From sequence record NC_106513.1: DNA of 64,000 nucleotides. One strand, given 5' to 3'. Both the position numbers and the translations under genes were made by a program. Under the pieces are notes generated by a model. The model saw only the letters and a list, made by a program, of their open reading frames with translations, was not told the DNA's origin and did no database searches. The stretch comes from Escherichia phage vB_EcoS_ESCO30. Each line of letters starts with the position of its first letter. The first letter of the stretch is position 1. Shown one piece after another: positions 29,654-36,111 of the stretch.

Positions 29654-30074
29654 TTTCTCAACAAATTAATCGCAAATACTGAAGTGGGGTGGCAACTTCC
29701 ACTTTCACGCTACACTGCCGCTTCACTATACCGCACAAATCCTTGAGGATGGCCGCTAAGCCAGATTTGCTCACCTAATGCTTCATGTACTAGCTCATAC
29801 TAGATGTAGTATACCTTACGTCATCACTTCTCAGAGTTTTTCACTCTTCCCGTCTCACTTCACAACCACCTCACACTAGGTTGCTTCGAGGCCTTACCAG
29901 GGTTCCTACGGGATGTAGATCGCTAAGTATTCTATTAATTATTTGTTTAAAAACTAACACGTAACAGTTAAAACAACCCTTAATGGGGCAGCCTAACTGT
30001 TCCGTATCGCGGATTGTAAACAAGAAAAATTAGCAAAATCAATTTTTACTAATGTCTCTCAATTCAATATAAAT

Positions 30075-30103
30075 ATTATATCAAGATTTTGAGCATCGTG
30101 CAA
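30075..30103 (-). promoter_or_regulatory. sigma70-like early promoter
   Basis: Minus strand TTGCAC-17-TATAAT. Confidence 0.45.
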
Positions 30104-30179
30104 GTAAATTTTTAAAGAGAATGCTATCATTGGTCTTGAGTACGGATAAAACCGAGCCAAAATGACTCGGTTACGTGGA

Positions 30180-30377
30180 TTAGACACTTAAAATACTTCT
30201 AATCTCTTCTATATACTTATCTACTTTTTTAGCATCTACTTTGCTTAGTTTTTCTATATCAAAATTAGGATCAGTAAACATTCTAGCTATCTCTATCTCT
30301 AGAGACTTACTAATTTTCCCTGTAGTATTCCACTTAGAAATCTTCCCTTTTATTTTCCAAAATTCCTTATTCATCAT
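30180..30377 (-). CDS. hypothetical protein
   Basis: 65 aa ORF. Confidence 0.35.
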   Translation of the reverse strand: MMNKEFWKIKGKISKWNTTGKISKSLEIEIARMFTDPNFDIEKLSKVDAKKVDKYIEEIRSILSV

Positions 30378-30759
30378 TTAATCCCGGAACATAAATCCCA
30401 ACACGATTTAATTGTTCTTTAGCTTCTGCGAGAATATCTGGAGTGTACTCCCAAATATCATTTTCCACCTGTAAAAGATGGGGCGAACAACCGTCATCAG
30501 GCACACGACATATGGCCAAACCACGTGGATGGAACAAAGAGAAATTTAGTGCAACAATTAAACCCATAGCAGACAACTCATTCCAATCCAATTCCCATTC
30601 CCTAGCGTAGCCTGATAGGAAAACACCAATACAGGGATAGTCTATTTGCTGCTTCGGAAAAGTGAAGGAAGCTTGTCTTACCCCCAACCAACGTTGTAGC
30701 AGCTTCTCCGCACGCTTCACCAAACTAGGATCAATCTGACGCCAATATACTTGTTCCAT
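30367..30759 (-). CDS. hypothetical protein (paralog A of tandem pair)
   Basis: 130 aa; shares PCIG...W.ELD.MGL..ALN..LF.P... and C-terminal G(I/Y)xxPGL with neighbour. Confidence 0.5.
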   Translation of the reverse strand: MEQVYWRQIDPSLVKRAEKLLQRWLGVRQASFTFPKQQIDYPCIGVFLSGYAREWELDWNELSAMGLIVALNFSLFHPRGLAICRVPDDGCSPHLLQVENDIWEYTPDILAEAKEQLNRVGIYVPGLNDE

Positions 30760-30768
30760 TGTGCCCCC

Positions 30769-31197
30769 TTAGGCAGTTAAACCAGGAATCTGATAACCAA
30801 AACGACGAAGTTTCTGGATACCATCATTTACCTCTTCCGGCGAGTAAGACCAACCGTAGTGTTCATTAACTTGAAAGCCCGGAGATTCACTGGTTTTATA
30901 ATTAACAACAATACGGTGTTTATTGGGCATAAATAGCTTATAGTTTAATGCAAAAACCAATCCCATTTCATCCAGCTCTTTCCATCCGACAATCTCTTCA
31001 AGACCATCCTCTACCTGCACAATTAAACCAATACAGGGAGCCTCTTCAATCTCACCTTTAAAAGCAAAGGAGATTTCATTATTCTCACACCATATTTTCA
31101 GAGCATTAATAGCCTCGTTGTACAGGTTGGCTGGAAGAGTACGCCAAAAATTAACCAATATTGGGTTAGCTTCTTTAGAAAATACATTATTGAACAT
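30769..31197 (-). CDS. hypothetical protein (paralog B of tandem pair)
   Basis: 142 aa; same motif pattern as 30367-30759. Confidence 0.5.
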   Translation of the reverse strand: MFNNVFSKEANPILVNFWRTLPANLYNEAINALKIWCENNEISFAFKGEIEEAPCIGLIVQVEDGLEEIVGWKELDEMGLVFALNYKLFMPNKHRIVVNYKTSESPGFQVNEHYGWSYSPEEVNDGIQKLRRFGYQIPGLTA

Positions 31198-31199
31198 AT

Positions 31200-31706
31200 T
31201 TACACCTTAAATTGTTGTAGGGCTTTACACATTTCAAGATCTGGACTAAATTCTAACATATAGCTAACAGCTCTTAAATCTTGAAGATTTATTCCAGTCC
31301 TACCGTTGACTATAACCGTTGGATACTGATACATCATAGCACCCGCATCATCAAGCACACACCAATGTTTGAGCTTATGCTTTTCAACGAAACGAAGAAC
31401 AGAATTACCCCTAGATAATCCACCCCCAGTAAAATCCGTTGTACCAAGAAAACGATCGATAAGACCTAATCCGGTCATAATCTGAACGTTCTCCATCTCA
31501 TTTCTGACAGAGAACCAAGATGATACTCCAACAATCATTATCGGAGAAGGACGAATAAAGTCCTGAAAAGCCTTGAGAAGCGGTTTAAAAACCCAGTCAC
31601 TTCCAAAGAAAATCTTTTCATCATCAGGTGCATGGTGATGAGAGATGCTCGAGTTGAGTACCCCATCAATATCTAGAAAAATAATTGGAGTATTACTTAT
31701 TTCCAT
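31200..31706 (-). CDS. HAD-superfamily hydrolase (possible 5'-deoxynucleotidase)
   Basis: IIFLDIDGVLN motif I of HAD phosphatases; later VLDD acidic motif. Confidence 0.55.
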   Translation of the reverse strand: MEISNTPIIFLDIDGVLNSSISHHHAPDDEKIFFGSDWVFKPLLKAFQDFIRPSPIMIVGVSSWFSVRNEMENVQIMTGLGLIDRFLGTTDFTGGGLSRGNSVLRFVEKHKLKHWCVLDDAGAMMYQYPTVIVNGRTGINLQDLRAVSYMLEFSPDLEMCKALQQFKV

Positions 31707-31875
31707 TTTTGTCCCTTTCTAAGAACGTATCATACTCAACCGTATCAACATATATGACACCATAGTCATCAGATTTATAGTCCATTTCCCATAGCTCACA
31801 TCGATAACACCAACTACCATCCGCCCATACAAATATATCATCGGGATGTGTATATACAGATTTAACTATGGACAT
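31693..31875 (-). CDS. hypothetical protein
   Basis: 60 aa ORF overlapping neighbours by a few codons (translational coupling). Confidence 0.3.
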   Translation of the reverse strand: MSIVKSVYTHPDDIFVWADGSWCYRCELWEMDYKSDDYGVIYVDTVEYDTFLERDKNGNK

Positions 31876-32698
31876 ATCTGTTTCCCCTCATCTCCGGTAC
31901 ATAAGGTCTACCCTCTAGATGGGCTTCTACACGAGCAATAAAATCAGGGTCACTGAAAGCATCTACCGCACCTTTACTCCAGTAAGGGATACCGCGTTCT
32001 TCCAACTGGTACATCTCACTACGAGTCATACCTTGATAGCCTGGTTCCGCCGCTAGGGCACTATCGTAGTAGTTAACTACCATAAGTTTCGCAGCAGTAC
32101 GATTAAGAGTAGGAAATAGTTCCCAGTAGAAGTTAATTACTTGGTTAGAGCAACCAACTACAACGATCATATCTTGACTGGTAATACCATCAAAAATATT
32201 GTACATTTCTGCGTACGCTGGAGCATGCTCACCAAAGAAGATTACATTAGGTTTAACCCATTTATAATCATCTGGGTCAATAGAGTTATACCCAACATCA
32301 ATAACTCGTTTATTACTACTATTGTAGCTGTCAGCTACAACAACCTCTTTTAAATATCCGTGAATGTGCAGAATGTCACTATGTGGAACACCAGCACGCT
32401 CAATAAGATCATCAACGTTAGTAGTCAAATTTACTACTTGACCCGGATATTTCTTATACCATTCACCAATACGCAGGTGTGCAAGATTGGGTTCAACAGT
32501 TTCTAACTCTTCACGACGTTTGTTGTAAAACGTGTGGGTTTTATGATAAAAATTACCACGAAAGGCATGAATATTACATATCTCTTCTAAGTCATAATCA
32601 TCCCACAATGCTTTACCACTAGCAGTATCAGTACGGAAGGCTCGTACACCACTTTCAACACTCAAACCTGCACCGCTAATAATAATTAATCTACGCAT
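31862..32698 (-). CDS. Sir2-like (sirtuin-family) protein lacking zinc-ribbon cysteines
   Basis: GAGLSVESGVRAFR matches sirtuin NAD-binding motif GAGxSxxSGIPxFR; catalytic HG (HIHGYL); no CxxC pairs. Confidence 0.6.
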   Translation of the reverse strand: MRRLIIISGAGLSVESGVRAFRTDTASGKALWDDYDLEEICNIHAFRGNFYHKTHTFYNKRREELETVEPNLAHLRIGEWYKKYPGQVVNLTTNVDDLIERAGVPHSDILHIHGYLKEVVVADSYNSSNKRVIDVGYNSIDPDDYKWVKPNVIFFGEHAPAYAEMYNIFDGITSQDMIVVVGCSNQVINFYWELFPTLNRTAAKLMVVNYYDSALAAEPGYQGMTRSEMYQLEERGIPYWSKGAVDAFSDPDFIARVEAHLEGRPYVPEMRGNRYVHS

Positions 32699-32912
32699 TT
32701 TTCACCTGTTCTCTGAAGTTTTTACTAAGGTTATGGAGTATATCAGATACTTCTGGATGGGCTTTCCCAACTACAGAATTAGCCATAATATCCATTATTT
32801 TTGCACAAGATTCAACCCCATCCTTATACCCAGCCTCCCACTGCTGCATCAATGCATTTTCCAGCGCAGCATTTAAGCCGTTATCGGGTAGCATCGGCTT
32901 CGAGAATGCCAT
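32691..32912 (-). CDS. hypothetical protein
   Basis: 73 aa ORF. Confidence 0.35.
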   Translation of the reverse strand: MAFSKPMLPDNGLNAALENALMQQWEAGYKDGVESCAKIMDIMANSVVGKAHPEVSDILHNLSKNFREQVKNA

Positions 32913-33084
32913 AAAGTTTCTCCTCTAGTTCCATAATACGACTTTCATAAGAAGCACGCAACTTTTCAATTGCTAGCGCACGCACCATAACCTCATTAGA
33001 GTTAATAGCTAATTGAGCTAGCTCTTCAGTTTCCATACGTCCGTTATAGATTAAGCGATATTTAAGGTGTTTTACGTTTTTCAT
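32881..33084 (-). CDS. hypothetical protein
   Basis: 67 aa ORF. Confidence 0.3.
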   Translation of the reverse strand: MKNVKHLKYRLIYNGRMETEELAQLAINSNEVMVRALAIEKLRASYESRIMELEEKLYGILEADATR

Positions 33085-33293
33085 TCTATGTCCTCAAACA
33101 ATTCAATTTCTGCATTTGCAATTAAAAGAGCTGGTTCCGATAAGCATATGCCTGATCTAGGGTCAATCTTCTCCTTATCCATCCAAGTATTTATTAAGCA
33201 AAATTTAGTAACATCTTCTCTTAGAATAGATCCATATGCTCCTGAGTCCATAACAAAATAGATACGATCTTTATCTACCTTATGAATCCTCAT
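33081..33293 (-). CDS. hypothetical protein
   Basis: 70 aa ORF directly downstream of conserved promoter/leader. Confidence 0.4.
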   Translation of the reverse strand: MRIHKVDKDRIYFVMDSGAYGSILREDVTKFCLINTWMDKEKIDPRSGICLSEPALLIANAEIELFEDIE

Positions 33294-33321
33294 ATCTTTC
33301 TCCTCTCAAATTTATAAATCT

Positions 33322-33350
33322 ATTATACATATATTTTTAGCTGAAAGCAA
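33322..33350 (-). promoter_or_regulatory. sigma70-like early promoter
   Basis: Minus strand TTGCTT-17-TATAAT plus conserved leader. Confidence 0.5.
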
Positions 33351-33392
33351 ATAAAATAAAAGCCAGGTCGACTAGCAACCTGGCTGATTATC

Positions 33393-35219
33393 TTACTTAA
33401 GATTTAAGTGTTTTACTCTACCAAGCACTTCTTTTTGTTTCCCAGAATTGAAAGGCCTACTGCCCGGGGATCCCAGGTACCCGCAAACCCTACGTGTAAC
33501 CTCTATTTCTTCAGACCCACAACTTGGACATACAAACCCACGCTCAGAGGCAATAGATTCACCCATATATCCGCAGTTGAAACACTCGTCAATCGGTATA
33601 TTAACACCGATATAATGGCTACACTCTAGTCCCTTATCTACTACGTATTCAAGAGCTTTATGGAATTTTTTCATTTGTGGTAATTCCACAAACGATATAT
33701 TACCCCCATTAGCTATTTTGGTAAAATGAGCTTCGTACTCAAATTTAGTATCTGGGGCTACCTTCTCTCTTACGTCCAAATGGTGACTATTAGTAAGATA
33801 GCCTTTGTCTGTTAACCAAGAATACTCTGGGAATCTACGTTCTAGTAATTTATTAAAACGATTACATAGAGACTCACTAGGAGTAGCGTATAAGCTAAAT
33901 CCAAGATTAGTCTCATTAGCTTTAACTTCGCAACGATTTTTTAAGTGAGTGAGAACTTCCTCTGTAAATTCAATACAGTCCCTATGAGTCTGTGGTAAAC
34001 TAAACATTATTTGGCACATCTCATAGACTCCAATATACCCAAGAGATACAGAAGATCTACCCTCAAAAATAGGCCATACATATTCTTCCCCCTCTAAACG
34101 TACACCAAAACCACCGTGCATATAAAGAATAGGGGCTTGTTTAGCCTTCACTTTCTTAAGTCTATCCAAGAAAAAATCATGAGCTTCAAAAGCCTCATCC
34201 ACATATTTGTCCAGAATATCCCAGAAATCTTCAAAAACCCCATCTGCCTCAGCAGCAACCATAGGTAGATTAATAGACACTACACCTAAATTATTGCGCC
34301 CTGCAATTTCTCCGGAGGGGATAGCAGATAAAAAGCTACGACAACCCATAGGGGCTTTAAAATCACCAGTAACAGCTACAACTTTCTCATAGCTTAAATA
34401 GTCTGGGTACATACGGGTAGCAGAACACTCAAGTGCTAGCTGTTTTATATCGTAGTTAGGATCGCCTGGATTTTTATTTAACCCTTCTTTAACTGAGAAT
34501 ACTAGTTTAGGGAAGATAGGGGTTGACTCAGCAGCACCTAAACCTTTAATACGATTTTGGAGGATGGCTTTCTGAATCATCCTTTCCTCCCACTCCTGAC
34601 CTAATCCAAAGCCAAGCGTAACAAAAGGGGTCTGCCCATTAGAGTTAAATAATGAATTAGTTTCATACTCTAGAGCTTGGAATGCATCATAACACTCTTT
34701 TTCAGTAAGCTCAGTGGCATACACAGCAGCTTTTCTTTCATCCTTGAGCCAACGTAGCCCACGACCCAGATGTTTATTGTAAGACTTTCTGACATACGGG
34801 GCTAGAACCTCGTCGATACGATCAATAGAGGTGCCACCATACTGAGCACCAGATACTTGGGCAATAATCTGAGCAGTGATTGCACATGCAGTAGTTATGG
34901 ATTTAGGAGTTTCAATATTTGCATTACCAATTTTAGTACCATTCTTCAGCATGCCACCAAGGTCTACTAAGCAACAGTTAGTGTACCCCTGCGCCCTGTA
35001 ATCCATATCATGAATGTGTATCTTACCTAGATTATGGGCGTCTAATAGATGTTTGGGTAATTCCTGCGATACTAAATACTTGTTGATTTCTCCGGCCAAT
35101 AAGTCTCTTTGAGTATGGAACATCTCACTAGGCTTATTAGCATTATTATGTTGTAAGTCTTTATCCGCAGTTAGAGTGAGCAGACCTTTGCAATTCTCAA
35201 TTAATTCATTCTCTGTCAT
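33393..35219 (-). CDS. nrdD: anaerobic ribonucleoside-triphosphate reductase (class III)
   Basis: 608 aa; C-terminal zinc site CxxC...CPxC and glycyl radical motif RVCGYLG. Confidence 0.85.
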   Translation of the reverse strand: MTENELIENCKGLLTLTADKDLQHNNANKPSEMFHTQRDLLAGEINKYLVSQELPKHLLDAHNLGKIHIHDMDYRAQGYTNCCLVDLGGMLKNGTKIGNANIETPKSITTACAITAQIIAQVSGAQYGGTSIDRIDEVLAPYVRKSYNKHLGRGLRWLKDERKAAVYATELTEKECYDAFQALEYETNSLFNSNGQTPFVTLGFGLGQEWEERMIQKAILQNRIKGLGAAESTPIFPKLVFSVKEGLNKNPGDPNYDIKQLALECSATRMYPDYLSYEKVVAVTGDFKAPMGCRSFLSAIPSGEIAGRNNLGVVSINLPMVAAEADGVFEDFWDILDKYVDEAFEAHDFFLDRLKKVKAKQAPILYMHGGFGVRLEGEEYVWPIFEGRSSVSLGYIGVYEMCQIMFSLPQTHRDCIEFTEEVLTHLKNRCEVKANETNLGFSLYATPSESLCNRFNKLLERRFPEYSWLTDKGYLTNSHHLDVREKVAPDTKFEYEAHFTKIANGGNISFVELPQMKKFHKALEYVVDKGLECSHYIGVNIPIDECFNCGYMGESIASERGFVCPSCGSEEIEVTRRVCGYLGSPGSRPFNSGKQKEVLGRVKHLNLK

Positions 35220-36111
35220 TGATTATTTCCTCGATAAACTTTATAGCTACTTTTGGTTCAATATTGAAGAATTCCGTAGCGCCGTCAAAATCTTTGTACT
35301 GGCAATTCTGCTCTTTAAAGTAGTTATGGGCTAATTTTTCTATTCGAACTGCACTACTATATTCTCCAATTTCAAATACTTTAATTATTTCCAAATCAGT
35401 AAGGTGGCTACTAGATCTAATTTGTAGAAGCCTACGCTCTGGGTTGTTAGATCTACCTATTTTAACCCCATGTGAGGGGCTATGCATAATATATATCCTA
35501 GTACTTTCTAAATCTCTATAATTACAGTAAGGACAACCGTTCCCTCTTAATACAGATCCTGGAGTAGCTTCCCACCTATGCCCTGCACCACAAAGAAAGG
35601 CGGTCTTAGTATTCGCGTTACTATACTCACCCACTATTCTGATATTTCTGGCAGCAAGACGATCATTTATAGTATTAACACTAAGTTTTTGTTTATTAGT
35701 AGCACAAGATGGGCAGCCACTACCTCTATTAATTATACTATTAAGTGTAGTAGCCCACTCATGACCACAAACACACCTAAATTTAGTATTTATATCGGCA
35801 CTATTTTTATAGCCGTTCAACAATGTAATACCTCTGTCCTGTAATACAGTATTAATTCTATCAATATCTAGTTTACGGCTACTAATAGAGCAAGTAGGAC
35901 AATTGGTCTTTCCATTCCTAATAGCGTCAAATTTAGCTGTCCATTGGTGACCGTATTCACACTGATACGTATGCCTATACCTAGAATTTTGATATGGCTT
36001 ATCCACCATAGTAAAACCACGCTCGGCTAGGCATTTATCTACTTCTTCTTGAGTTAATTTTTTCGGCATTCCACTTCTCCACAGAATTTTTACGGCATTC
36101 CACTTCTCCAC
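35206..36111 (-). CDS. T5orf172-domain protein with three zinc-ribbon repeats
   Basis: Three CxxGHxW...CPxC repeats, then ...VKIGRSNNPERRLLQIR... T5orf172-type motif; true start probably the internal Met (MPKKL). Confidence 0.6.
   Translation of the reverse strand: MEKWNAVKILWRSGMPKKLTQEEVDKCLAERGFTMVDKPYQNSRYRHTYQCEYGHQWTAKFDAIRNGKTNCPTCSISSRKLDIDRINTVLQDRGITLLNGYKNSADINTKFRCVCGHEWATTLNSIINRGSGCPSCATNKQKLSVNTINDRLAARNIRIVGEYSNANTKTAFLCGAGHRWEATPGSVLRGNGCPYCNYRDLESTRIYIMHSPSHGVKIGRSNNPERRLLQIRSSSHLTDLEIIKVFEIGEYSSAVRIEKLAHNYFKEQNCQYKDFDGATEFFNIEPKVAIKFIEEIINDRE

What the first reader, a model, noticed from the sequence alone, without database searches (positions are those of the whole stretch)
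30367..32698. Accessory islet: tandem paralog pair + HAD-like hydrolase + Sir2-like gene in one translationally coupled operon
Two adjacent genes (30367-30759 and 30769-31197) encode clearly related proteins (shared PCIG...W.ELD.MGL..ALN..LF.P core and C-terminal G-x-x-PGL), followed without gaps by a HAD-type phosphatase (IIFLDIDGVLN) and the Sir2-like gene. The tight coupling suggests one functional module, possibly nucleotide or NAD metabolite processing or host takeover. The paralogs have no motif I can place in a known family.
Basis: partly seen in the sequence, partly recalled or inferred. Interest (0 to 1): 0.6.

Follow-up and report, generated by a model that had tools for sequence, protein, structure and literature searches.

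The report
T5 early operon: sirtuin, phosphatase, DUF7415 pair
This is a conserved early-gene block of a T5-like phage: the sirtuin and phosphatase were already predicted in 2022 to repair cut RNA, and the two paralogs belong to a catalogued phage protein family whose function is still unknown.

Summary
On the minus strand, 30367-30759 (A) and 30769-31197 (B) encode paralogs (31% identity, E=1e-19). Upstream lie a HAD phosphatase and a Sir2 protein, all overlapping or ≤9 nt apart. The block is part of a nine-gene early unit (33293-30180), equivalent to T5.100-T5.107.

It is not an accessory islet. Composition is ordinary, and nrdD - small ORF - Sir2 - B - A - obp is syntenic across Demerecviridae.

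It is not one cassette either. HAD is missing from several lineages. The same Sir2 clade sits in rV5-like phages without the paralogs, beside RNA ligase 1 and cREC. Per-gene divergence separates [Sir2+60-aa ORF], [HAD] and [B+A].

The Sir2-HAD pairing in T5-like phages is already published as a predicted NAD+-dependent RNA-repair system (Iyer et al. 2022, PMC9503650), still untested.

The paralogs are Pfam DUF7415. Their C-terminal half is a widespread, acidic, strongly conserved ~55-aa phage early-gene domain. The models are confident (pLDDT 88 and 96) but have no solved structural relative. The duplication is ancient; A is canonical and B degenerate. Function, and any link to Sir2, remain open.

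The parts
33361..33385 (-). Intrinsic terminator hairpin ending the nrdD transcript, upstream boundary of the unit
   Evidence: 10-bp stem with 6 GC pairs, followed by TTTATTTTAT. A terminator is annotated at the same place in Bf23 and T5.
33322..33350 (-). Promoter-like site (TTGCTT, 17 nt, TATAAT) for the early unit
   Evidence: Read from the sequence. The -35 matches only 3/6, so the consensus scan did not list it. Promoters are annotated at the homologous position in Bf23 and T5.
33081..33293 (-). o70: 70-aa acidic ORF, first gene of the unit (phrog_20147)
   Evidence: It is 52-64% identical to the first ORF after nrdD in Sugarlandvirus, L009 and L011, but shows no homology to the Bf23 ORF at that position. 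pI 4.74.
32881..33084 (-). o67: 67-aa ORF (phrog_5236)
   Evidence: ATGA overlap with o70. 84-100% identical in Seabear and Bf23.
32691..32912 (-). o73: 73-aa ORF (phrog_5827)
   Evidence: It overlaps Sir2 by 8 nt.
31862..32698 (-). Sir2-family protein (278 aa; T5.102 equivalent), a zinc-less sirtuin of the phage 'RNA-repair' clade
   Evidence: PF02146 1.7e-24. Best solved relative is E. coli CobB 1s5p, 1.5e-17. GAGLS at 9, TTNVD at 92, HG at 113, no CxxC. Below the NCBIfam CobB cut-offs. 55-64% identical to rV5-like sirtuins that sit beside Rnl1 and cREC. Described in PMC9503650.
   Evidence: Overlaps Sir2 and HAD by 14 nt each. 45-57% identical to the ORF directly after Sir2 in L009, L011 and Seabear, including lineages without HAD. 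Its divergence tracks that of Sir2. pI 4.26.
31200..31706 (-). HAD-superfamily phosphatase, SAK-type (168 aa; T5.105 equivalent)
   Evidence: PF18143 HAD_SAK_2, 4e-20 over the full length. Motif I DIDGV at residue 12. No solved sequence relative. Present in about 440 T5-like records and absent from Sugarlandvirus, DU_PP_V and L009-L012. Mislabelled 'Sir2' through phrog_18062.
30769..31197 (-). DUF7415 paralog B (142 aa; T5.106 equivalent), the degenerate copy
   Evidence: PF24187 3.1e-33 and phrog_2502. AF2 pLDDT 88.2, pTM 0.82. The single-domain profile hits residues 69-130 at only 4e-11. N10, S13, H27, G-L-A and R35 of the family consensus are lost. B-type orthologs exist in Sugarlandvirus and L011.
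30367..30759 (-). DUF7415 paralog A (130 aa; T5.107 equivalent), the canonical copy
   Evidence: PF24187 7.1e-30. AF2 pLDDT 96.0, pTM 0.89, with the same element order as B. The single-domain profile hits residues 57-118 at 1e-22. A-type orthologs are found in every Demerecviridae lineage examined.
30180..30377 (-). o65: 65-aa basic ORF (phrog_29527), variable last gene of the unit
   Evidence: Overlaps A by 11 nt; pI 9.5. Absent at this position in Bf23 and T5.
30150..30172 (-). Terminator-like hairpin (AACCGAGTCA / TGGCTCGGTT, then TTTAT) ending the unit
   Evidence: Inverted repeat I9: 10-nt arms, 90% complementary, 3-nt loop. Sequence. A terminator is annotated at the homologous place in Bf23 and T5.

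Best explanation
The finding covers most of one early transcription unit of a T5-like phage (equivalent to T5.100-T5.107). The unit is a composite of three sub-modules that happen to be co-transcribed.

(1) Sir2 plus the 60-aa ORF that always follows it. This zinc-less sirtuin belongs to the phage clade that Iyer et al. 2022 predict uses NAD+ to ADP-ribosylate and remove a 2'-phosphate from nuclease-cut RNA, in the manner of KptA/Tpt1.

(2) The SAK-type HAD phosphatase. It is a lineage-specific addition, predicted either to trim terminal RNA phosphates or to process the ADP-ribose phosphate by-product.

(3) The B+A pair. These are ancient tandem duplicates of a two-part protein whose C-terminal ~55 residues form the DUF7415 domain. 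That domain is acidic, very strongly conserved and widespread in early operons of P2-, T4- and T5-like phages, and it has no solved structural relative. I infer that A (canonical motif) and B (degenerate motif) work together, probably as a heterodimer, and bind a conserved protein or small ligand rather than nucleic acid.

Shown here: gene structure, homologies, distributions, the age of the duplication and the fold predictions. Inferred only: the RNA-repair chemistry, A-B pairing and the kind of ligand.
For: Unit structure.

Sir2 clade and RNA-repair context:
- SAK-HAD lies next to it in T5-likes.
- The same clade, at 55-64% identity, sits in rV5-like FV3 between RNA ligase 1 + cREC and a MazG-like pyrophosphohydrolase, with a P-loop kinase and a calcineurin-like phosphoesterase nearby.
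- Both configurations and the KptA-like proposal are published (PMC9503650).

Three sub-modules:
- HAD is absent from five other Demerecviridae lineages that keep Sir2 and at least the A gene.
- Identity of the window to Seabear is HAD 90%, B 73%, A 71%, Sir2 61%, o60 56%.
- o60 is conserved directly after Sir2.

The pair:
- E=1e-19 between A and B.
- A-to-A and B-to-B scores across lineages exceed A-to-B scores.
- Confident models share one topology, and a BFVD A-type model matches the B model at TM 0.86/0.93.
- About 22 near-invariant positions across 135 members, kept in A and largely lost in B.
- Median pI 4.85 for 107 single-domain members.
Against: - No experiment supports the sirtuin RNA-repair chemistry.
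- No RNA ligase, polynucleotide kinase or cREC homolog is detectable in this 64-kb window, so a complete heal-and-seal pathway is not visible here.
- The closest solved relatives of Sir2 are protein deacylases, and its catalytic residues are intact, so ordinary deacylase or NADase activity is not excluded.
- A-B heterodimerisation was not modelled. DU_PP_V keeps A without B, so B is dispensable in at least one lineage.
- Conserved adjacency of Sir2 and the pair across the family, often with overlapping stop and start codons, could mean that they do work together, contrary to my separation of sub-modules.
Confidence: 0.5

Rival explanations
1. The DUF7415 pair is an integral, previously unrecognised component of the sirtuin-centred RNA-repair system. 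It would, for example, recognise damaged tRNA or regulate Sir2, and in Demerecviridae it would stand in for the cREC, ligase and kinase partners seen in other phages.
For: - Sir2 followed by B then A is conserved in every Demerecviridae lineage examined, even where A is only 38-51% identical, and the start and stop codons often overlap.
- In T4-like Aeh1, a single-domain DUF7415 gene starts at the last base of rnlA (RNA ligase 1), and a HAD_SAK_2 homolog lies about 2 kb upstream.
- The domain is fused to DUF3850/ASCH and to a thymidylate-kinase-like domain.
Against: - The whole early region is syntenic in this family, so conserved adjacency is weak evidence.
- rV5-like phages have the sirtuin without DUF7415.
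- Of 83 DUF7415 loci, none has Sir2, HAD or Rnl1 within 4 kb, whereas 52 have P2 gene A.
- The proteins are acidic.
- No KH or other RNA-binding profile matches any of 135 members.
Confidence: 0.2
2. The Sir2 protein is a conventional NAD+-dependent protein deacylase, ADP-ribosyltransferase or NADase used for host takeover or counter-defence. HAD would be a nucleotide or metabolite phosphatase, and RNA repair would not be involved.
For: - The best solved and NCBIfam relatives are CobB-type deacylases (1.5e-17 and 2.6e-29).
- The NAD-binding GAGLS motif and the catalytic His are retained.
- The unit is early-expressed and adjacent to nucleotide-metabolism genes.
Against: - Scores are far below the equivalog cut-offs (102 vs 243 bits; 91 vs 320 bits).
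- The zinc-ribbon cysteines are missing.
- The HAD belongs specifically to the SAK RNA-repair clade.
- The same sirtuin clade sits inside a ligase/cREC/kinase cluster in rV5-like phages.
- No PADLOC match.
Confidence: 0.2
3. The DUF7415 proteins are accessories of anaerobic ribonucleotide reduction or of dNTP metabolism.
For: - The unit lies immediately downstream of nrdD in all Demerecviridae.
- In Jiaodavirus the single-domain gene lies exactly between nrdD and nrdG.
- One member is fused to thymidylate kinase.
Against: - A terminator and a promoter separate nrdD from the unit.
- Only 1 of 83 loci has NrdD or NrdG nearby.
- P2-like prophages carrying the domain show no RNR gene in the flanks examined.
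Confidence: 0.08

Closest known systems
Sirtuin-centred predicted NAD+-dependent RNA-repair neighbourhoods of phages, type 3 ('Escherichia phage SP15' type), Iyer, Burroughs, Anantharaman & Aravind 2022 (PMC9503650, section 3.7.3)
   Same: It has the same sirtuin clade and the same SAK-like HAD phosphatase in a T5-like phage. The window's B protein is 98% identical to the SP15 protein. This is the very system described in that paper.
   Different: The text I retrieved does not mention the 60-aa ORF between Sir2 and HAD, or the DUF7415 pair. My survey also shows that HAD is the dispensable partner within Demerecviridae, whereas the pair (or at least A) always accompanies Sir2.
rV5/Mydo-type sirtuin neighbourhood (type 2 of the same paper): T4-like RNA ligase 1, cREC, nucleotide kinase, MazG, calcineurin-like phosphoesterase
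   Same: The sirtuin is 55-64% identical, and I confirmed the RNA-repair context in FV3.
   Different: There is no DUF7415 and no HAD. Conversely, the T5-like window shows no ligase, kinase or cREC.
KptA/Tpt1 RNA 2'-phosphotransferase
   Same: The proposed chemistry is the same: NAD+-dependent ADP-ribosyl transfer to an RNA 2'-phosphate, releasing ADP-ribose 1''-2'' cyclic phosphate. This is a published prediction, not tested.
   Different: The fold is unrelated (ART superfamily versus the Rossmann-fold sirtuin), so the similarity is an analogy only.
E. coli CobB (class III sirtuin, PDB 1s5p)
   Same: It is the closest solved sequence relative. It shares the Rossmann core, the GAG(I/L)S motif, the catalytic His and the TxNxD motif.
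   Different: The phage protein lacks the zinc-binding cysteines, has a 60-residue C-terminal extension, and scores far below the CobB equivalog cut-off.
Pfam DUF7415 (PF24187) / PHROG 2502, 3954, 33705, 1812
   Same: Both paralogs score far above the Pfam gathering threshold (103 and 114 bits versus 27).
   Different: The family has no known function and no paper mentions it. The T5-type proteins add an N-terminal half of about 55-65 residues that my single-domain profile does not recognise.
T4 Pnkp 3'-phosphatase domain (HAD/DxD family) in the Pnkp-Rnl1 tRNA repair pathway
   Same: It is a HAD-type phosphatase predicted to act on RNA termini and shares the DxDG motif I. The comparison rests on my own knowledge of T4 Pnkp plus the Pfam family name.
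   Different: The window's HAD has no kinase domain fused to it, no detectable sequence match to any solved chain, and no partner ligase in the window.

Membership tests
Pfam DUF7415 (PF24187) | Profile score above the gathering threshold (27 bits) | tested here: met
   A scores 103.4 bits and B scores 114.2 bits.
Pfam DUF7415 (PF24187) | Near-invariant core W-N-x-x-S-x-x-G-L ... I-N-x-E-x-L-H-P-L-G-L-A ... R ... G-x-S ... D-G-x-W-x-Y (from 135 members) | tested here: met
   Met for A: W, N, S, G-L, N, H-P, G-L-A, R, G-x-S and W-x-Y are kept, and the single-domain HMM gives E=1e-22. For B the core is degenerate: N10, S13, H27, G-L-A and R35 are lost, and E is only 4e-11.
Sir2 / sirtuin superfamily | PF02146 above threshold, NAD-binding GAGxS motif and catalytic His | tested here: met
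   87.1 bits against a cut-off of 24. GAGLS is at residue 9, and HG at 113 aligns with the CobB catalytic His.
Sir2 / sirtuin superfamily | Zinc-ribbon module with two CxxC pairs (canonical deacylase sirtuins) | tested here: not met
   There is no CxxC in the protein, and the CobB cysteine region aligns to a cysteine-free stretch.
CobB-type protein deacylase (NCBIfam NF040867 / NF001753) | Score above the curated equivalog or subfamily cut-off | tested here: not met
   91 bits against a cut-off of 320, and 102 against 243.
Phage sirtuin RNA-repair clade (Iyer et al. 2022) | Conserved neighbourhood with RNA-end-processing genes, and no adjacent Macro gene | tested here: met
   HAD_SAK_2 lies one small ORF away. 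Close homologs lie next to Rnl1 and cREC in FV3. None of the seven unit ORFs scanned against Pfam (Sir2, o60, HAD, B, A, o65, o73) hits a Macro domain.
Phage sirtuin RNA-repair clade (Iyer et al. 2022) | NAD+-dependent removal of RNA 2'-phosphate | not testable with these tools
   This needs a biochemical assay. No experimental paper was found.
HAD superfamily, SAK_2 clade (PF18143) | Profile above threshold over the full length, and motif I DxDG(T/V) | tested here: met
   73 bits against a cut-off of 27.5, covering residues 8-143 of the 139-position profile. DIDGV is at residue 12.
HAD superfamily, SAK_2 clade (PF18143) | Motifs II-IV (S/T, K/R, acidic pair) positioned in a Rossmannoid fold | tested here: inconclusive
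   Candidates VGVSS and VLDDAG can be seen by eye in the sequence. No structure was modelled and there is no solved relative.
Complete heal-and-seal RNA repair pathway (T4 Pnkp + Rnl1 type) | A polynucleotide kinase and an RNA ligase encoded with the phosphatase | tested here: not met
   tblastn of Rnl1, Rnl2, the P-loop kinase, cREC and the metallophosphoesterase against the window gives no hit at E<=1. Only these 64 kb were tested.
KH domain (type I), considered for the DUF7415 C-terminal half | Beta-alpha-alpha-beta-beta-alpha fold with a GxxG loop, and profile or structural similarity | tested here: not met
Known anti-phage defence or anti-defence proteins (PADLOC) | Match to any PADLOC model | tested here: not met
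   No hit for any of the five proteins at E<=0.01.

The most novel reading that the evidence does not exclude
The DUF7415 A/B pair, an orphan fold, is a new and dedicated component of sirtuin-based RNA repair in T5-like phages. It would be a heterodimer that recognises nuclease-damaged tRNA or gates the sirtuin, and single-domain relatives would do the same job next to RNA ligase 1 in some T4-like phages such as Aeh1.
Probability: 0.2. Interest if true: 0.55.

Novelty: already known. Interest (0 to 1): 0.3.

Why it matters
T5-like phages carry many tRNA genes and meet host defences that cut tRNA. If the sirtuin really removes RNA 2'-phosphates with NAD+, it would be a second, structurally unrelated solution to the KptA/Tpt1 reaction and a new kind of sirtuin substrate. 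That idea is already in print and only needs testing.

The part nobody has discussed is the DUF7415 domain. It is very strongly conserved, acidic, about 55 residues long, and has a confidently predicted fold with no solved relative. It is found in early operons of three unrelated phage groups (P2-, T4- and T5-like). Such breadth and constraint point to a conserved target in Gammaproteobacteria.

This report also flags a propagated database error: the HAD gene is named 'Sir2' in RefSeq and PHROGs.

Tried and rejected
1. Internal duplication of each paralog, suggested by Pfam reporting two stretches per protein. Pairwise half-versus-half tests were not significant. A profile built only from single-domain homologs matched only the C-terminal halves. 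The two halves have similar beta-alpha-beta-beta element order, but homology is unproven.

3. NrdD/NrdG link, from Jiaodavirus. It is not general: 1 of 83 loci.

4. P2 Orf91 as a DUF7415 member, prompted by a note on T5.106. P2 Orf91 is DUF3850 and Orf83 is DUF5405. They are fusion partners of DUF7415, not members.

5. MazG-like nature of the P0076 N-terminus and of the Jiaodavirus gp67 annotation. No Pfam, PDB or named PHROG support. gp67 is simply DUF7415.

6. General RNA-ligase adjacency of DUF7415, after Aeh1. Not reproduced in 83 loci.

7. Technical dead ends:
- The search for related loci with the two-domain alignment found no stretch conserved enough to search with.
- The AFDB50 fold library was unavailable.
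- P0114 had no contig on record.
- Rfam and PADLOC gave nothing.
- A profile search of solved structures with the family gave nothing.
Full report
**What the window is.** A megablast of 30000-33400 matches 529 phage records, almost all T5-like (Tequintavirus and relatives), at 88-96% identity. GC in this stretch (0.38) is the same as in the rest of the window.

**Checking the observation.**
- The ORF list shows all genes of the finding on the minus strand: A 30367-30759 (130 aa), B 30769-31197 (142 aa), HAD 31200-31706 (168 aa) and Sir2 31862-32698 (278 aa).
- HAD hits PF18143 (HAD_SAK_2, 4e-20) and has motif I DIDGV. Sir2 hits PF02146 (1.7e-24).
- Junction gaps along the unit are -4, -32, -8, -14, -14, +2, +9 and -11 nt.
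- The unit starts after the nrdD terminator hairpin (33361-33385) at a promoter-like TTGCTT-17-TATAAT. It runs through three small ORFs (o70, o67, o73), Sir2, o60, HAD, B, A and a 65-aa ORF, and ends at a terminator-like hairpin at 30150-30172.
- Bf23 and T5 annotations place a promoter and terminators at the same positions.
- In T5 the genes are T5.102 (Sir2), T5.104 (o60), T5.105 (HAD), T5.106 (B) and T5.107 (A).

**Is it an accessory islet and one module?** No.
- In Sugarlandvirus phiKp_27, Pectobacterium phage DU_PP_V and three divergent metagenomic Demerecviridae contigs, the order nrdD - small ORF(s) - Sir2 - (small ORF) - B-type - A-type - gap - obp is kept. The HAD gene is absent from all of them, and DU_PP_V also lacks B.
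- tblastn finds HAD in 497 phage records, about 440 of them T5-likes at ≥80% identity.
- The same Sir2 clade occurs at 50-64% identity in rV5-like and phi92-like myophages, which gave no DUF7415 hit.
- Identity between the window and the Epseptimavirus Seabear is HAD 90%, B 73%, A 71%, Sir2 61%, o60 56% and obp 85%. So Sir2+o60 co-vary, B+A co-vary, and HAD behaves separately.
- o60 homologs (45-57% identity) follow Sir2 directly even where HAD is missing, and o70 homologs (52-64%) follow nrdD.

**Sir2 and HAD: already described.**
- In rV5-like FV3 the sirtuin lies between RNA ligase 1 plus a cREC ('cyclic-phosphate processing receiver') protein and a MazG-like pyrophosphohydrolase. A P-loop kinase and a calcineurin-like phosphoesterase lie alongside.
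- Iyer, Burroughs, Anantharaman and Aravind 2022 (PMC9503650, section 3.7.3) describe this arrangement as their type 2. [quoted passage not shown] SP15 is a T5-like phage whose B protein is 98% identical to the window's.
- They propose that these sirtuins act like KptA, removing 2'-phosphates from RNA cut by metal-independent nucleases. The associated phosphoesterases would resolve cyclic phosphates or process the ADP-ribose cyclic phosphate product.
- I found no experimental follow-up.
- The window's Sir2 keeps GAGLS, TTNVD and the catalytic His, lacks the zinc-ribbon cysteines, and scores well below the CobB equivalog cut-offs.
- No RNA ligase, kinase or cREC homolog is detectable in the window, so the sealing step is not accounted for here.

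**The paralogs.**
- Both belong to Pfam DUF7415 (103 and 114 bits) and PHROG 2502, 'unknown function'. No paper in the library mentions DUF7415.
- An exhaustive HMMER search of 1.84 billion representatives found only 54 at E≤0.001. About twenty of these are two-part proteins of ~130 aa like A and B. The rest match only the C-terminal half.
- A profile search with single-domain sequences found 418 clusters, mostly 75-85 aa proteins, many from Aeromonas, Vibrio and Photobacterium.
- A profile built from single-domain members hits A at residues 57-118 (E=1e-22) and B at 69-130 (E=4e-11). It never hits the N-terminal halves, and pairwise tests of the halves are not significant. The internal repeat implied by Pfam's two stretches is therefore unconfirmed.
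- Across 135 members, about 22 of ~50 positions are at least 90% conserved. A keeps most of them. B has lost N10, S13, H27, G-L-A and R35.
- Cross-lineage BLAST scores give A-to-A 64-114 bits and B-to-B 67-92 bits, against A-to-B 22-66 bits. The duplication therefore predates the split of Markadamsvirinae, Sugarlandvirus and the L011 lineage.

**Structure.**
- AlphaFold2 gives confident models: B has pLDDT 88.2 and pTM 0.82; A has pLDDT 96.0 and pTM 0.89.
- Both have the same element order: beta-alpha-beta-beta-beta, then alpha-alpha-beta-beta-alpha.

**Context of the single-domain form.**
- In 80 IMG/VR loci plus three others, tblastn finds P2 gene A within 4 kb in 52 loci, DUF3850/ASCH in 19 and Nudix in 6. 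Sir2, HAD and Rnl1 appear in none.
- Typical neighbours are P2 early-operon genes (DUF2732, a TraR/DksA zinc finger, DNA methylases). Frequent fusions are to DUF5405 (P2 Orf83-like) and DUF3850 (P2 Orf91-like).
- Rarer fusions are to thymidylate kinase, Phage_Cox, DUF551 and HTH_17.
- In Jiaodavirus the gene lies between nrdD and nrdG.
- In Aeh1 it starts at the last base of rnlA, with a HAD_SAK_2 homolog about 2 kb upstream.
- Links to RNA repair therefore exist but are sporadic.

**Conclusion.**
- The block is an ordinary, conserved part of the T5-type early region, and its Sir2-HAD component already has a published, untested functional prediction.
- The DUF7415 pair is truly uncharacterised. 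I think it most likely forms an A (canonical) / B (degenerate) heterodimer that binds a conserved protein or small ligand.
- Whether it serves the sirtuin is open. I put that at about 0.2.

Noticed in passing
window 31200-31706 (HAD); T5.105 in NC_005859: PHROG phrog_18062 is labelled 'Sir2 (NAD-dependent deacetylase)' but matches the C-terminal half of the HAD protein (3.5e-58). This explains why many RefSeq T5-like records, including T5.105, annotate two 'Sir2' genes. It is a propagated misannotation.
   Followed up: partly
window 30367-31197 and orthologs: DUF7415 proteins carry unsupported names in public records: 'tail tube protein', 'exonuclease', 'Phage exonuclease (ACLAME 70)' and 'MazG-like family protein'. 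None of these is backed by any profile hit here.
   Followed up: partly
window 33081-35219 (o70 and nrdD): The window's NrdD is only 61% identical to that of Bf23 and Seabear but 71% identical to Sugarlandvirus. Its o70 has homologs in Sugarlandvirus and L011 (58-64%) but none at the same position in Bf23. From o67 onward the unit is 95-100% Bf23-like. This looks like a recombination mosaic at the 5' end of the unit.
   Followed up: partly
window 29654-30070: An untranslated stretch of about 400 nt lies between the next promoter-like site (TTACTT ... TATAAT, about 30072-30105) and the origin-binding-protein gene. A gap of 400-980 nt is present here in every Demerecviridae lineage examined. The predicted RNA fold is only modestly more stable than shuffles (z=-2.2), there is no Rfam match, and there are only short repeats.
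   Followed up: partly
window 35206-36111 (minus strand, upstream of nrdD): A 301-aa ORF has repeated CPxC zinc-ribbon-like motifs. A gene at the equivalent position in contig L011 hits T5orf172/MUG113 (GIY-YIG-like) domains. It is probably a mobile endonuclease-type gene and is absent at this position in Bf23 and T5.
   Followed up: no
L099 (Aeromonas phage Aeh1) 15958-18519: The single-domain DUF7415 gene (Aeh1p318) starts at the last base of rnlA (RNA ligase 1). A HAD_SAK_2 homolog (Aeh1p322, 34% identity to the window's HAD) lies about 2 kb upstream on the same strand. The wider region also holds pseT, a NadM-like gene and a CCA-adding enzyme.
   Followed up: partly
P0031 (718 aa, metagenomic): This protein has 13 near-identical tandem repeats that each match the C-terminal ~35 positions of the family profile. 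It is most likely an assembly artefact.
   Followed up: no
window 30180-30377: A 65-aa basic ORF (pI 9.5, phrog_29527) overlaps the end of paralog A by 11 nt. It is present in some T5-likes (e.g. KS_S14-type) but absent from Bf23 and T5, so the 3' end of the unit is variable.
   Followed up: no
L020, L021, L062 and similar IMG/VR loci: In P2-like prophages the DUF7415 domain is very often fused to the C-terminus of a DUF5405 (P2 Orf83-like) or DUF3850/ASCH (P2 Orf91-like) domain. These are the two small genes that flank replication gene A in P2 itself.
   Followed up: partly
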